Sequence record: PP925835.1
Strand: one strand, 5' to 3'
Source: Escherichia phage Nernie
DNA: 64,000 nucleotides
The translations under genes were made by a program, and so were the position numbers. The notes beneath the pieces were generated by a model. It saw nothing but the letters and a program-made list of their open reading frames with translations. It made no database searches and had not been told where the DNA came from. Shown here one piece after another: positions 48,164 to 53,012 of this stretch; positions within the stretch are counted from its first letter, which is position 1, and each line of letters starts with the position of its first letter.

Positions 48164-49936
48164 GTGTCTTATGTTGTAAATAAATATGGGTATAACATTG
48201 ATCTAAGTCAAGAAGGACATACTGGGTGTCCTCGTTGTATGAAAGGAGGGCGTGATCGATCACAAAACAATTTGATGGTATATGGCTTAGATGCCGATGA
48301 AGACCATCGAGGCGCACATTGTTTTTCTTGTGGCTTTACTATCCCTGATCAAAAATGGTTAAATGCACACGGCGAAGAAATTGAAGAGGAGGATATCTTG
48401 GGTAGTGAGTTTAATCCAGAAGTACATGATAAACTAAAAGCCAGCACTGGAACTAATCCAAAAGGTTATCGCGGTATTCGTGAAGATATCTCTAAACCTT
48501 TCGGTGTACGCTATATGTACGATGAAGCTACTGGCGAAGTAATTTCAACACTATACCCTACAACTAAAGATTACAATATTGCTGGGTATAAACAACGTAT
48601 CGATCCAAAAGATTTCTCGCATCCTATCGGTGAAACAGGAAAGGATTGTGATCTTTTTGGGGAGTTTAAATATCGTAACCACAGCGGTACTATTCTAATC
48701 GTTGGTGGTGAACACGATATGCTGGCTGCAACACAGATGCTAAAAGATTATAACAAGGGTGGTAAATATCCTGTTCCTGCTGTAGTATCTGGTACTTGTG
48801 GCGAAACATCTCTGCATAAGCAGCTTCAACATCGTTATAAATTCTTAGACCAATTTAAAAAGATTGTTCTATGTATGGACAATGATGAAGCTGGACGTGC
48901 AGCAGTTGAGAAATGTGTTAAAATCTTACCACGTAATAAAGTTTACGTGATGGAGCTAACTGATGTTAAAGATCCTAACCAGGCACTAGTAGAAGGAAAA
49001 ATTGATCATTTTATTGATCGCTTTTTCAAAGCTAAACTATACACACCTGCTGGTGTTTACGCTTCTAACGTACTGTATGAAGCAGCCTTGGAATGCCTGG
49101 AAGCTAAAATGATCACCCTTCCTCCATTCATGCGTGTTGCTTCTAATATGTTAGGTGGAGGCTTGGTAGAAGAAGAAATTACTGTTATACTTGCAAAAAC
49201 AAGTATCGGTAAGACACTGTTGGTTAACGAGATTACGAAACACATTATTCTTGCACACCCAGAACATACTCTTGGTATTTTATCTTTGGAGGCAACGTAT
49301 AAGAAGTATTCTCGTAACTTACTGTCTTCATTCTTGCATATCCCTCTTCACCGTAAAACGAAAGAAGAGAAGGAAAAGATTTTAAAAGATAATGAAGAAA
49401 AGATTCGTGATTTTTACGAACGGGAAGATGGAACACCACGTTTCTATGTTTGTGATGATCGTGGAGCTAACGTAGATGTGATTAAAGAGAAGGTTCTGGA
49501 AATGATTATTTATTTCGGAGTAACCATTCTTGTTATCGACCCTTATTCTGATTTGCTTTCTGGTATGGACGTGTCACAACAAGAGGAACTTGCGACGTGG
49601 CTGAAACGCATTATGAAAGAGTATGCAATAACCATTGTTGTAATTTCACACGTTAAAAAGTCTTCTAACAATAGTAATGAACATATTGTAGAAGATGATG
49701 CAATGGGTAGTAGCTTCCTTGCTAAAGGTGCTGGTATCACAATTGCGCTGGAGCGTGATAAACAAGCTGAAGATCCTATGGAACGTAACCGCACATATTG
49801 CTACATTCTAAAGAACCGTGAGTTCTCAGAGACTGGTGCAGCAGGTAGTTTCTTCTATGAGATTAAAACAGCTACACTTCACGATTACGATCAATACACA
49901 AGTAACCCAGAAAATATTTCTGCTGGTTCTTATTAA
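48164..49936 (+). CDS. bifunctional primase-helicase (T7 gp4-like)
   Basis: GTG start after TAGGAGA; N-terminal zinc ribbon CPRC...CFSCGF, central TOPRIM-like acidic region, C-terminal DnaB-type Walker A (TSIGKT) and Walker B (LVIDPYSDL). Confidence 0.8.
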   Translation: MSYVVNKYGYNIDLSQEGHTGCPRCMKGGRDRSQNNLMVYGLDADEDHRGAHCFSCGFTIPDQKWLNAHGEEIEEEDILGSEFNPEVHDKLKASTGTNPKGYRGIREDISKPFGVRYMYDEATGEVISTLYPTTKDYNIAGYKQRIDPKDFSHPIGETGKDCDLFGEFKYRNHSGTILIVGGEHDMLAATQMLKDYNKGGKYPVPAVVSGTCGETSLHKQLQHRYKFLDQFKKIVLCMDNDEAGRAAVEKCVKILPRNKVYVMELTDVKDPNQALVEGKIDHFIDRFFKAKLYTPAGVYASNVLYEAALECLEAKMITLPPFMRVASNMLGGGLVEEEITVILAKTSIGKTLLVNEITKHIILAHPEHTLGILSLEATYKKYSRNLLSSFLHIPLHRKTKEEKEKILKDNEEKIRDFYEREDGTPRFYVCDDRGANVDVIKEKVLEMIIYFGVTILVIDPYSDLLSGMDVSQQEELATWLKRIMKEYAITIVVISHVKKSSNNSNEHIVEDDAMGSSFLAKGAGITIALERDKQAEDPMERNRTYCYILKNREFSETGAAGSFFYEIKTATLHDYDQYTSNPENISAGSY

Positions 49937-49946
49937 GGAGAAAAAT

Positions 49947-50366: not shown

Positions 50367-50432
50367 CAAAACAATTAATTTATGGTACAGTATTAACAAA
50401 TTAAGACTTTAGAAATATTTTAAGGAGGGAGA

Positions 50433-53012
50433 ATGGGAGCTTTTACTTTCGACATTGAAAGTAACAACTTGCTTAATGACGAAAGTGTAGATTACTTGGC
50501 AAGTCCATATCGTTTAAAAGATAGTTTTGCAATGCACTGTATTGTGTGCGAAAGTCATGATACTGGAGAGATTATTGCTTTCCATGATGGTGATAAATAT
50601 CTTTTCGATGGTCGTCCGTATGTTGAGACTGACGGAAAGTATGAATACCGACTGGAGGAATATGAGCATTTAGAATATACCCATTTCCCTCTTAAAGATT
50701 TTCCTGATTTTGTAAACGGAACAGGTAAATTTAAAGGTAATTCAAACTATAAAATTACCAAAGTAGTTGGACACAACATCATTAACTTCGACTTACTGGC
50801 AATTAAATTATTTTTTAAACTCAACTACAGTATTAAGTACAATACTTGGGGTAATAGTAACATTGAAATTTGTGATACTATGATCTTAAGTAAGACACTA
50901 AACCCTGATCGCTTCGGTGGTCATAGTCTGGCAGAGTTATCTAAGAAAGCTGGAGGGGATGTTAAAATTGATTTTAGAAAAAACATTCCTGAAGCTGAAA
51001 GATTTAAAACATTTGCAGCAGATATGCTGTATTACTGTATTTACGATAACAAAGCTAACACCGCAGTGTTCCGTTATTTGATGGAAGAGTGGGGTGATTA
51101 TAATAAGTGGTCTGAACCATTTAACTTAGAACAACGTGTAGCGGATATTATTACACGTCAAGAGCACCGTGGCTTTGCTTTCAACATGAAACAAGCAGAA
51201 GATAATATTCGTGATCTGGATGCTCGAATGGAAGCATGTCGTTTAGAGGCAGAACCTGTGCTACCTCCTAAACCTGCTACTAAAGGTTATTTGAAATCAT
51301 TCATTCCACCTAAACTACAGTTTAAAAAGAATGGTGAACCTTCAAGTAACATGATAAAGTTTGCAGAGAAACATTCTGGTGAACTTGTACAAAAAGAAGA
51401 TGGTTGGTGGTTATTTGCATTAGGTAAAGAGTTTAAACTCCCTATTCCAGCAGAAGAACCTATTTGTGATCCTACAGTACCTGCTACTTTAGACGACACT
51501 ACACATATTAAAAACTGGTTAGTTGGTTTAGGTTGGAGTCCATCTGAATATAAAGATAAAGATATCACTCTTAAATCTGGCACTAAGATTAAGAAAGATG
51601 AAGCACAGATGGAGAAAGCTATTCGTGACTATGTTGATCAAACGTTAGCATCTAACTTCTGCCAGGACAGATGTGATCATCTGGAGTGCACACCAGAAAC
51701 TTTGGAATGGAAACTAAGAGATCGTATTGCTAAAGCTAAAGGTCGTGGTGTTAAAGTGCTTACTAACCCTTCCTTTACAAAAGGGCAAGAGAAAGATATT
51801 TGTCCTAACTTGGAAGCACTGGGTGAAAAGTTTCCTTATGCTACGCAGATTGTGCAGTATCTTACGTATAAACACCGTAGGAACTCTATTCTAGGAGGTG
51901 GTGCTGATTGGGAAGAAGATGAAGAGGATTACGATAAGGGTTATCTGGCAGCAGTAAGGGCTGATGGTCGTATACCAACTCCTGCTGCAACGTGTGATGC
52001 GGCTACATCTCGTATGAAACATAGGTTAGTAGCAAATATCCCACGTGTAACATCTCTGTACGGATATGAAATGCGTAACTTATTTGGTGTAGAAGTTCCA
52101 AAATACTTCCAAATTGGTTATGACTTTGATTCTCTTGAGGCAAAAATAGAATCACACTACTGTTGGCGGTACGAGCAGGAACCACACGAATATTGTAATG
52201 CTCTATTGTTGGAAAAACCTAATGATGTTCATACAATGATGGCTCGACGTATTTCTGACACTATTGGTCGTAAGTTTGAACGAAGCCCTGCTAAATCTGT
52301 TAAGTATGGTATTACTTATGGTGCTCAAGCTGCAAAAGTAGCAAAAACTATAGGTAGTGATATGTATACAGGACAGCTTGTATACGATGCTTTCTGGGAA
52401 GCTGCAAAACCTCTTGCGCTTCTTAAAGAACGTCTGCATGACTTTTGGGTTAAAACAGGTAAGAAATACATTCTTGGTATTGATGGTAGGAAAGTACCTA
52501 CACGATCTGCACACGCAATACTTAACTCTCTGTTCCAGAGTGGTGGTGTTATTTGTGCAAAAAGAGCAATGGTTATCTACGATGATCTTATCGAAGAAGA
52601 AGGATTAGCTGTTGACTTTTTTGTTGATGACTGGAAAAATAAGTCATTCGTTCAACAAATGATTGCATATCACGATGAAGCACAGCTTGAAGTAACTCGT
52701 GATCTGGTGCATTTTAAATGGTTCTCTAAAGAGTCTTTAGGTTGGACTCAAGTTGATGATCCAGAAGAACAAAAGAAAATTGATAAAGAATGTTTGGATA
52801 AAGTTAACACCTGGAAAGAAGAGGAAGAGAAACGTACTGGCAAGATTTGGGCTAACGTACATGAATCTCCGAAAGGTGGTTGGTTTACAGCCTACAGTCG
52901 TGCTGGAGAATTAGCATCTATCGCTGTTAATAAAGCTGGTGAGTATTACAATCTTAATGTACCTCTCACTGCTGGTTACGACGTTGGTAACTCATGGGCC
53001 AGTTGTCACTGA
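50433..53012 (+). CDS. family A DNA polymerase with 3'-5' exonuclease domain
   Basis: Exo motifs FDIES, HNIINFD, YCIYD; polymerase motif A GYDFDSLEAKI, motif B RSPAKSVKYGITYG, motif C YHDEAQLE. Confidence 0.85.
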   Translation: MGAFTFDIESNNLLNDESVDYLASPYRLKDSFAMHCIVCESHDTGEIIAFHDGDKYLFDGRPYVETDGKYEYRLEEYEHLEYTHFPLKDFPDFVNGTGKFKGNSNYKITKVVGHNIINFDLLAIKLFFKLNYSIKYNTWGNSNIEICDTMILSKTLNPDRFGGHSLAELSKKAGGDVKIDFRKNIPEAERFKTFAADMLYYCIYDNKANTAVFRYLMEEWGDYNKWSEPFNLEQRVADIITRQEHRGFAFNMKQAEDNIRDLDARMEACRLEAEPVLPPKPATKGYLKSFIPPKLQFKKNGEPSSNMIKFAEKHSGELVQKEDGWWLFALGKEFKLPIPAEEPICDPTVPATLDDTTHIKNWLVGLGWSPSEYKDKDITLKSGTKIKKDEAQMEKAIRDYVDQTLASNFCQDRCDHLECTPETLEWKLRDRIAKAKGRGVKVLTNPSFTKGQEKDICPNLEALGEKFPYATQIVQYLTYKHRRNSILGGGADWEEDEEDYDKGYLAAVRADGRIPTPAATCDAATSRMKHRLVANIPRVTSLYGYEMRNLFGVEVPKYFQIGYDFDSLEAKIESHYCWRYEQEPHEYCNALLLEKPNDVHTMMARRISDTIGRKFERSPAKSVKYGITYGAQAAKVAKTIGSDMYTGQLVYDAFWEAAKPLALLKERLHDFWVKTGKKYILGIDGRKVPTRSAHAILNSLFQSGGVICAKRAMVIYDDLIEEEGLAVDFFVDDWKNKSFVQQMIAYHDEAQLEVTRDLVHFKWFSKESLGWTQVDDPEEQKKIDKECLDKVNTWKEEEEKRTGKIWANVHESPKGGWFTAYSRAGELASIAVNKAGEYYNLNVPLTAGYDVGNSWASCH

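What the first reader, a model, noticed from the sequence alone, without database searches (positions are those of the whole stretch)
48164..53012. T7-like replication core (gp4-like primase-helicase plus family A polymerase) in a genome with T4-like early-region architecture
The primase-helicase fusion and family A polymerase are hallmarks of T7-type replication, yet the window also has many small early genes with promoter/stem-loop cassettes, nrdDG, a Ter-like module and multiple glycosyltransferases, which are typical of much larger phages. The mosaic hints at an under-described phage lineage.
Basis: inference. Interest (0 to 1): 0.45.

Follow-up and report, generated by a model that had tools for sequence, protein, structure and literature searches.

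The report
Known phi92-like phage replication genes
The primase-helicase and family A DNA polymerase are real and T7-like, but the whole window is 96-99.7% identical to the named E. coli phage genus Justusliebigvirus (phi92-like), where both genes are already annotated, so the finding is ordinary.

Summary
ORF 48164-49936 (+) encodes a 590-aa fused primase-helicase: a Cys4 zinc ribbon, a TOPRIM domain and a DnaB/gp4-type helicase. ORF 50433-53012 (+) encodes an 859-aa family A polymerase with intact Exo I-III and pol A/B/C motifs. The best solved-structure matches for both are T7 gp4 (E 2e-27) and T7 gp5 (E 7.5e-21).

The 4.8-kb region is 99.7% identical to phage Antha, and 55 deposited phages carry it at 95% identity or more. 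The rest of the 64-kb window is collinear with the same genus at 96-99%: Justusliebigvirus, subfamily Stephanstirmvirinae, type phage phi92. These records already label the genes "primase/helicase (T7-like)" and "DNA polymerase".

The gene pair recurs with stepwise lower identity in Phapecoctavirus (70-78%), in Pseudomonas myoviruses of about 90 kb (39-52%), and more distantly in other myoviruses. It is therefore an old, shared trait and not a recent mosaic.

Side observations:
- The polymerase has an empty intein site.
- A nearby unannotated OB-fold protein carries the host SSB tail DFDDDIPF.
- Promoter plus stem-loop cassettes repeat through the early region.
- Fur-box-like site clusters flank the early region.

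The parts
48164..49936 (+). Fused DNA primase-helicase (590 aa), orthologue of phi92 gp161. Zinc ribbon at aa 22-56, TOPRIM at about aa 177-275, SF4/DnaB-type helicase at about aa 329-572.
   Evidence: Annotated with identical coordinates in phages Paula and PaulScherrer.
49947..50339 (+). Small conserved ORF (130 aa), orthologue of phi92 gp160, function unknown.
   Evidence: PHROG 22634 of unknown function, E 1e-89. No Pfam, NCBIfam or PDB match. Some records label it 'endonuclease', which nothing found here supports.
50347..50391 (+). GC-rich hairpin (AAGGGGCGAAAGCCCCTT) overlapping a promoter-like site (TTTACA-17-TACAGT with an upstream TG), just ahead of the polymerase gene.
   Evidence: These are pattern matches only. 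Promoter-like sites in this region are not in excess over shuffles (47 found against 42.4 +/- 7.4 expected).
50433..53012 (+). Family A DNA polymerase with 3'-5' exonuclease domain (859 aa), orthologue of phi92 gp159. The intein-free allele: the empty insertion site lies after residue 577, at about nt 52163/52164, just downstream of motif A.
   Evidence: 100% amino-acid identity to the phage Antha polymerase. The intein in PaulScherrer is shown.
54202..55149 (+). Candidate single-stranded-DNA-binding protein (315 aa), orthologue of phi92 gp156 ('conserved hypothetical'). N-terminal OB-like beta domain, 4-helix bundle, disordered linker, invariant DFDDDIPF, then a 15-aa extension.
   Evidence: The function is inferred, not shown.
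25393..27168 (+). UvrD/Rep-type SF1 helicase, a likely accessory replication or repair helicase in the same plus-strand gene block.
   Evidence: Annotated 'DNA helicase' in relatives.

Best explanation
The window is part of a phi92-like E. coli myovirus (genus Justusliebigvirus, subfamily Stephanstirmvirinae). The flagged region is that genus's ordinary, already annotated replication module.

Proposed mechanism:
1. A hexameric gp4-type protein unwinds the fork using its SF4 helicase, and lays down RNA primers using its zinc ribbon and TOPRIM domain.
2. A T7-gp5-like family A polymerase with proofreading exonuclease copies both strands.
3. A nearby OB-fold protein with an acidic SSB-type tail probably coats the single-stranded DNA.

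Shown here: the domain architecture, conservation of the catalytic motifs, and near-identity to known phages. Inferred: assembly into a T7-style replisome, the processivity factor, and the SSB role.

The pairing of this replisome type with a large myovirus genome is an old feature of a broad group of roughly 85-150 kb myoviruses. It is not a recent mosaic and not a new lineage.
For: Identity to a known genus:
- 99.7% nucleotide identity over 4847 of 4849 bases to phage Antha. 55 records cover at least 80% of the region at 95% identity or more.
- Window 1-25000, 25001-50000 and 50001-64000 are collinear with Justusliebigvirus genomes at 97.4%, 99.3% and 99.1%.
- The taxonomy and the existing annotation 'primase/helicase (T7-like)' and 'putative DNA polymerase' are in the records.

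T7-type character of the proteins:
- T7 gp4 and gp5 are the best solved-structure matches.
- Catalytic motifs are intact.

An old, shared gene pair:
- Polymerase: 78% in Phapecoctavirus-type phages, 45-52% in Pseudomonas myoviruses of about 90 kb, about 27% in ICP1 and rV5-type phages, 25-31% (palm and fingers only) in T7-like phages.
- Primase-helicase: about 70%, then 39%, 35%, 29%, 26-27% (T7-like), and 21% (rV5-type).
- The two genes are adjacent in a Pseudomonas Otagovirus, which also has a downstream protein ending in DFEDDVPF.

Literature: rV5-group phages have a Pol A plus a gp4d-type helicase (PMC3606486). The Justusliebigvirus phage BME3 is described as having a helicase/primase, polymerase and SSB replisome (PMC12210895).
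Against: - No biochemical work on this lineage's replisome was found among the papers I could read. The original phi92 genome paper (PMC3457257) is not held.
- No detectable homologue of T7 gp2.5 by sequence.
- Whether the insertion in the polymerase thumb binds thioredoxin or any other processivity factor cannot be told.
- The polymerase is 155 aa longer than T7 gp5, and the extra segments have unknown roles.
- Only 64 kb of a roughly 146-kb genome was seen, so the absence of other replication genes rests on the annotation of relatives.
Confidence: 0.93

Rival explanations
1. The window comes from a new, under-described phage lineage whose genome is a fresh mosaic of a T7-type replication module inserted into a T4-like backbone.
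For: The genome does combine T7-type replication genes with features common in large myoviruses: NrdDG, a Ter module, and promoter plus stem-loop cassettes in a block of small early genes.
Against: - 96-99.7% nucleotide identity and collinearity with a named genus that has dozens of isolates.
- Both genes are only 26-30% identical to T7's.
- Both follow the same identity ladder through related myovirus groups, which argues for long vertical co-inheritance.
- No T4-type replisome genes (family B polymerase, clamp, clamp loader) appeared among the larger ORFs scanned at 25-56 kb.
Confidence: 0.02
2. The family A polymerase is a repair or gap-filling enzyme, and bulk phage DNA synthesis is done by the host Pol III holoenzyme, recruited through the phage protein that carries the host SSB tail.
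For: - The gp156-like protein carries the exact E. coli SSB C-terminal motif DFDDDIPF. That motif recruits host replication and repair proteins (PMC5872125 and PMC3632105).
- No phage processivity factor was identified.
Against: - The polymerase sits next to a replicative-type primase-helicase in a module conserved across many virulent myoviruses.
- Its closest solved relative is the replicative T7 gp5, not Pol I.
- All catalytic and proofreading motifs are intact.
- In the window protein the IPF is not C-terminal; 15 more residues follow it.
Confidence: 0.05

Closest known systems
Escherichia phage phi92 and other Justusliebigvirus members (Antha, alia, Paula, PaulScherrer, muut, BME3): gp161 primase/helicase, gp160, gp159 DNA polymerase
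   Same: Same genes in the same order at 98.5-99.7% nucleotide identity. The polymerase is 100% and the primase-helicase 99.8% identical in amino acids to those of Antha.
   Different: phi92, VEcB, UAB_1, ESCO32 and PaulScherrer carry a 245-aa intein in the polymerase after residue 577, and the window has the empty site. The early-gene block (1-25000) is the most variable part, at 85-99% coverage.
Bacteriophage T7 replisome (gp4 primase-helicase, gp5 polymerase, gp2.5 SSB, host thioredoxin)
   Same: A single-polypeptide zinc-ribbon, TOPRIM and SF4-helicase protein, and a family A polymerase with proofreading. Catalytic motifs and the polymerase C-terminal end are conserved, and T7 proteins are the best PDB matches.
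   Different: - Only 26-30% identity.
- The polymerase is 155 aa longer, with extra segments at about residues 380-470 and 757-815.
- No recognisable thioredoxin-binding domain by sequence.
- No gp2.5 homologue by sequence.
- The helicase C-terminal tail is not strongly acidic.
- The host genome is a roughly 146-kb myovirus, not a 40-kb podovirus.
Pseudomonas myoviruses of about 88-98 kb (PAK_P1/KPP10-like phages, Otagovirus) and Phapecoctavirus
   Same: The same primase-helicase and Pol A pair, adjacent and in the same order. Identity is 39-52% in the Pseudomonas phages and 70-78% in Phapecoctavirus. A downstream protein ends in an SSB-like acidic tail.
   Different: Smaller genomes and different hosts. 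The small gp160-like ORF between the two genes is absent in the Otagovirus example.
T4-type (Straboviridae) replication and early-region organisation
   Same: A block of many small genes driven by strong sigma-70 promoters, each followed by a conserved hairpin. This resembles T4 'PeSL' cassettes (from my own knowledge). NrdDG is also present.
   Different: No family B polymerase, clamp, clamp loader, or separate gp41/gp61-type helicase and primase was seen among the larger ORFs scanned at 25-56 kb. The replication chemistry is T7-type.

Membership tests
Genus Justusliebigvirus (phi92-like phages) | High nucleotide identity across the genome (ICTV practice, from my own knowledge: about 70% or more for a genus, 95% or more for a species). 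| tested here: met
   All three window thirds match genus members at 97.4-99.3% identity with 99-100% coverage. This was tested on the 64-kb window only, not the full genome.
Genus Justusliebigvirus (phi92-like phages) | Gene order collinear with phi92 (gp154 to gp172 around the replication genes). | tested here: met
   The Paula annotation maps one-to-one onto phi92 gp154-gp172 and onto the window ORFs.
T7 gp4-type bifunctional primase-helicase | One polypeptide with an N-terminal Cys4 zinc-binding domain, a TOPRIM primase domain and a C-terminal SF4 (DnaB/RecA-like) helicase. | tested here: met
   CPRC and CFSC at residues 22-56. Toprim_2 at 180-275. DnaB_C at 332-553. Alignment to T7 gp4 spans residues 135-582.
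T7 gp4-type bifunctional primase-helicase | Catalytic residues: TOPRIM Glu and DxD, Walker A and B, arginine finger. | tested here: met
   GGEHDML, DNDEAG, AKTSIGKT, LVIDPYS, and KNR aligned to T7 KCR (which I take to be R522, from memory of the literature and my own counting). This rests on alignment only, with no activity test.
T7 gp4-type bifunctional primase-helicase | Acidic C-terminal tail ending in an aromatic residue that contacts the polymerase. | tested here: inconclusive
   The window protein ends ...NPENISAGSY. It has an aromatic last residue but few acidic residues, whereas T7 ends ...SNDTDF.
T7 gp5-type family A replicative polymerase | Pol A motifs A, B and C, and the 3'-5' exonuclease motifs Exo I-III. 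| tested here: met
   DFDSLE (564), RSPAKSVKYGITYG (617), HDE (747), DIE (7), NIINFD (115), YCIYD (201). T7 gp5 is the best PDB match.
T7 gp5-type family A replicative polymerase | A thioredoxin-binding loop in the thumb that confers processivity. | tested here: inconclusive
   There is an insertion of similar length at the equivalent position (about residues 280-350), but no significant sequence similarity to the T7 loop. Binding is not testable with these tools.
T7 gp2.5-type SSB | Sequence homology to gp2.5. | tested here: not met
   BLASTP of the gp156-like protein against T7 gp2.5 gives no significant alignment.
OB-fold SSB with bacterial-type C-terminal tip (SSB-Ct) | An OB-fold DNA-binding domain, a disordered linker, and the acidic DDDIPF motif. 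| tested here: met
   - AlphaFold model with mean pLDDT 80.9: beta domain at 1-130 and disordered regions at 138-154 and 268-315.
- DFDDDIPF is nearly invariant across the 29 aligned homologues (D293, D296 and D297 in at least 90%; P299 and F300 in all).
- ssDNA binding was not tested. In the window protein the motif is followed by 15 more residues.
T4-type replisome | Family B polymerase, sliding clamp and clamp loader, separate helicase and primase. | tested here: not met
   No such domains in any of the larger ORFs scanned between 25 and 56 kb. The rest of the genome was not seen.

The most novel reading that the evidence does not exclude
The least ordinary reading still open is that this lineage runs a hybrid replisome. 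In that reading, a T7-type primase-helicase and polymerase work with a phage OB-fold protein (54202-55149) that has copied the host SSB tail DFDDDIPF. The tail would let the phage tap or compete for host SSB-binding partners. In the phi92 clade, a conserved 15-aa extension (APIGLQYGRNFLHCF) would mask or re-target that tail. This protein is unannotated in the deposited genomes.
Probability: 0.3. Interest if true: 0.35.

Novelty: already known. Interest (0 to 1): 0.08.

Why it matters
It matters little as a discovery. The region is the standard replication module of a named, repeatedly isolated E. coli phage genus, and both genes are already annotated as such.

The result is still useful in three ways:
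- It removes a false lead.
- It shows that a T7-type replisome in a large myovirus is a widespread, old arrangement: Stephanstirmvirinae, Pseudomonas myoviruses of about 90 kb, and more distantly the rV5, ICP1 and Felix O1-type groups.
- It points to small annotation gaps in this genus, namely a probable SSB with a host-type tail and Fur-box-like site clusters.

Tried and rejected
- The original phi92 genome paper (PMC3457257) could not be read.
- ARAGORN found no tRNA genes in the window.
- Rfam at gathering thresholds found nothing in the window.
- NCBIfam hits for the primase-helicase and the polymerase are far below the curated cut-offs. These proteins therefore do not belong to the cellular DnaB, DnaG or Pol I equivalog families.
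- The small ORF between the two genes has no Pfam, NCBIfam or PDB match, so the 'endonuclease' label in some records is unsupported.
- BLASTP of the SSB candidate against T7 gp2.5 found nothing.
- Foldseek against viral models returned mostly uncharacterised proteins.
- Promoter-like and terminator-like sites around the replication genes (44-57 kb) are not in excess over shuffles: 47 against 42.4 +/- 7.4, and 7 against 7.6 +/- 3.0. I therefore make no claim for regulation there.
- I found no paper combining Fur boxes with phage genomes.
- I did not build formal phylogenies. The tblastn identity ladders were enough for the verdict.
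Full report
**What is at the coordinates.**

The flagged span holds three plus-strand ORFs.

ORF 48164-49936 encodes 590 aa. It starts at a GTG with an AGGAG six bases upstream, the same start used in the deposited annotations of phages Paula and PaulScherrer.
- Pfam finds Toprim_2 (residues 180-275, E 1e-10) and DnaB_C (332-553, E 7e-16).
- PHROGs places it in phrog_239 'DNA primase/helicase', E 1e-166.
- Every significant solved-structure match is bacteriophage T7 gp4, best E 2e-27, aligned over residues 135-582. BLASTP identity to T7 gp4A is 26%.
- Direct inspection shows a CPRC...CFSC zinc ribbon (22-56), the TOPRIM Glu (GGEHDML) and DxD (DNDEAG), Walker A (AKTSIGKT), and Walker B (LVIDPYS). 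An Arg aligns with what I take to be the T7 arginine finger, R522; that residue number comes from my memory of the T7 literature and my own counting of the alignment.

ORF 50433-53012 encodes 859 aa.
- It hits Pfam DNA_pol_A and phrog_17.
- T7 gp5 is by far the best solved relative (E 7.5e-21). The next match, a Pol I, reaches only E 0.006.
- Exo I-III and polymerase motifs A, B and C are all intact. The C-terminal GNSWASCH mirrors T7's GLNWAICH.

Between the two lies a 130-aa ORF (49947-50339). It belongs to a phage family of unknown function and has no other detectable similarity.

**What the window is.**

Megablast of the 4.8-kb region against deposited phage genomes finds 55 records that cover at least 80% of it at 95% identity or more. 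The best is Escherichia phage Antha at 99.7%, followed by Justusliebigvirus alia, Eryne, ALITA, phi92, Paula and others.

The rest of the window behaves the same way:
- 1-25000 matches Eryne at 97.4% with 99% coverage.
- 25001-50000 matches VivaForever at 99.3% with 100% coverage.
- 50001-64000 matches Justusliebigvirus alia at 99.1%.

The records place these phages in Caudoviricetes; Stephanstirmvirinae; Justusliebigvirus. The Paula record maps each ORF one-to-one to phi92 gp154-gp172. It labels the two genes 'primase/helicase (T7-like)' and 'putative DNA polymerase'.

At the protein level, the polymerase is 100% and the primase-helicase 99.8% identical to those of Antha.

That condition is met.

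**Is the mosaic real, and is it new?**

- NrdD and NrdG are present.
- A Ter-type module is present: HAD hydrolase, ComF-like PRTase, Macro, TerC, TelA, vWA-TerF and TerD.
- Two paralogous glycosyltransferase-like ORFs lie just upstream of the primase-helicase. Their Pfam scores are weak: only Glyco_trans_1_2 on the second passes the curated cut-off. Relatives annotate both as 'putative disaccharide synthase'.
- A minus-strand block of small genes lies at about 3-14 kb. Sigma-70-like promoters there are in excess: 89 against 66 +/- 7.3 in shuffles, and the best ones are nearly all on the minus strand with a perfect TTGACA.
- In 7-9 of those cases the promoter is followed by the same hairpin, GGCGGGAAATGGTTTCCCGCC.

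None of this is new for the lineage.
- The rV5 paper describes a Pol A and a gp4d-type helicase in rV5-group myoviruses together with NrdAB and NrdDG, and groups phi92 and phAPEC8 as a related genus (PMC3606486).
- The BASEL paper treats phi92-like phages as a sister clade of Phapecoctavirus (PMC8594841).
- The BME3 paper describes the helicase/primase, polymerase and SSB replisome of a Justusliebigvirus (PMC12210895).

The tblastn identity ladders show the two genes travelling together.
- Polymerase: 78% in a Phapecoctavirus-type phage, 45-52% in Pseudomonas myoviruses of 88-95 kb, about 27% in ICP1 and rV5-type phages, and 25-31% over palm and fingers only in T7-like podoviruses.
- Primase-helicase: about 70%, then 39%, 35%, 33%, 29%, 26-27% (T7-like), 25% (roughly 89-kb Felix O1-size phages) and 21% (rV5-type).

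In a Pseudomonas Otagovirus the two genes are adjacent in the same order.

This pattern fits an old, vertically shared module and not a recent capture from a T7-like phage. Nothing of T4 type (family B polymerase, clamp, clamp loader) appeared among the larger ORFs scanned between 25 and 56 kb.

**How it most likely works.**

Shown: the domain architecture and the conserved catalytic residues of a bifunctional primase-helicase, and of a proofreading family A polymerase whose nearest solved relatives are the T7 replisome proteins.

Inferred:
- A hexameric ring of the 590-aa protein translocates on the lagging-strand template, unwinds the fork and synthesises short RNA primers.
- The 859-aa polymerase extends both strands.
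- The UvrD-type helicase at 25393-27168 and the Nrd enzymes play supporting roles.

What provides processivity is unknown. The polymerase has an insertion at the position of T7's thioredoxin-binding loop, but with no significant similarity to it. It also has two further segments absent from T7 gp5, at about residues 380-470 and 757-815.

**A probable missing replisome part.**

About 1.2 kb downstream of the polymerase, ORF 54202-55149 (phi92 gp156) is annotated 'conserved hypothetical'. It falls in PHROG 4477 of unknown function and has no Pfam or NCBIfam hit.

It has 98 homologues in large phage contigs. In an alignment of 29 of them the C-terminal DFDDDIPF is nearly invariant: D293, D296 and D297 in at least 90%, and P299 and F300 in all. 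DDDIPF is the E. coli SSB C-terminal interaction motif (PMC5872125).

I read it as the phage SSB, with confidence of about 0.6.

Most homologues end exactly at ...DIPF. The window protein and a minority carry a further conserved stretch of about 15 aa (A-P[IVL]GLQY...), whose meaning I cannot explain.

The Otagovirus has a different 340-aa protein in the equivalent position, ending in DFEDDVPF.

**Verdict.**

The sequence observation is correct, and the 'T7-like' label is justified at the level of architecture and nearest solved relatives. The lineage is a known, named genus with dozens of sequenced isolates and existing annotation of these genes.

Novelty: already known. Interest is low. The side observations (a probable unannotated SSB with a host-type tail, the intein-free polymerase allele, the promoter-hairpin cassettes and the Fur-box-like clusters) are recorded separately.

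Noticed in passing
window 54202-55149 (+): This 315-aa protein is labelled 'conserved hypothetical' in relatives (phi92 gp156; PHROG 4477, unknown function). The model shows an OB-like N-terminal domain, a 4-helix bundle and a disordered tail. The tail contains DFDDDIPF, the E. coli SSB C-terminal tip, which is nearly invariant across the family. Most homologues end at IPF. This clade adds a conserved 15-aa extension, APIGLQYGRNFLHCF. It is probably the phage SSB and is unannotated in the deposited genomes.
   Followed up: partly
window 1787-2001, 2841-2916 and 14099-14217: Palindromes resembling the E. coli Fur box cluster in two ORF-poor, AT-rich stretches that flank the minus-strand early-gene block. 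The Fur consensus GATAATGATWATCATTATC with up to 3 mismatches gives 4 hits against 0.08 expected. The phage's own consensus TGAGAATGATTATCA with up to 2 mismatches gives 11 hits against 0.34 expected. They could be Fur-controlled early promoters, a Fur sink, or operator sites of a phage protein. The muut record annotates them only as 'repeat_region'.
   Followed up: partly
window 14235-14439: Three tandem AT-rich repeats of about 65-75 nt (…TTGAACTTTTCATTTTCAAAAT…AAAAACTTTAAATAA…) lie next to the Fur-box-like cluster in a non-coding stretch. This could be a regulatory region or a replication origin.
   Followed up: no
window 3870-13220 (minus strand): There are 7-9 copies of a cassette: a near-consensus sigma-70 promoter (TTGACA, 16-17 nt spacer, TAnnnT) followed by the hairpin GGCGGGAAATGGTTTCCCGCC, each ahead of a small gene. 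They resemble the T4 'PeSL' promoter-stem-loop cassettes (from my own knowledge).
   Followed up: partly
window about 52163/52164 (polymerase residue 577/578); L002 5501-6235: The polymerase has the intein-free allele. phi92, VEcB, UAB_1, ESCO32 and PaulScherrer carry a 245-aa intein right after motif A (…DFDSLEAKIESHY|C…). The annotated intein boundaries in PaulScherrer appear shifted by one residue, because the annotated peptide starts VPMD and ends TGNC.
   Followed up: yes
window 33341-43355 (+): A Ter-type stress module sits in a virulent phage: HAD hydrolase, ComF-like PRTase, Macro domain, TerC, TelA, vWA-TerF-like and TerD, next to NrdDG. It is already annotated as tellurite-resistance proteins in relatives.
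   Followed up: partly
window 45279-47882 (+): Three consecutive putative sugar-transfer genes lie just upstream of the primase-helicase. One has a weak hit to TET-associated glycosyltransferase (PF20691, E 2e-4, below the cut-off). The other two are paralogous weak-scoring glycosyltransferase-like ORFs that relatives call 'disaccharide synthase'. The BASEL paper mentions a putative glycosylation machinery in phi92-like phages that nevertheless remain sensitive to restriction-modification systems.
   Followed up: no
(records MG065645, MG065689, MG065639, MG065656): Several GenBank records named 'Campylobacter phage' (A145, A110a, A150, C3; about 146.4 kb) are 96-99% identical to this E. coli phage genus. 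They are probably mislabelled or contaminant phi92-like phages.
   Followed up: no
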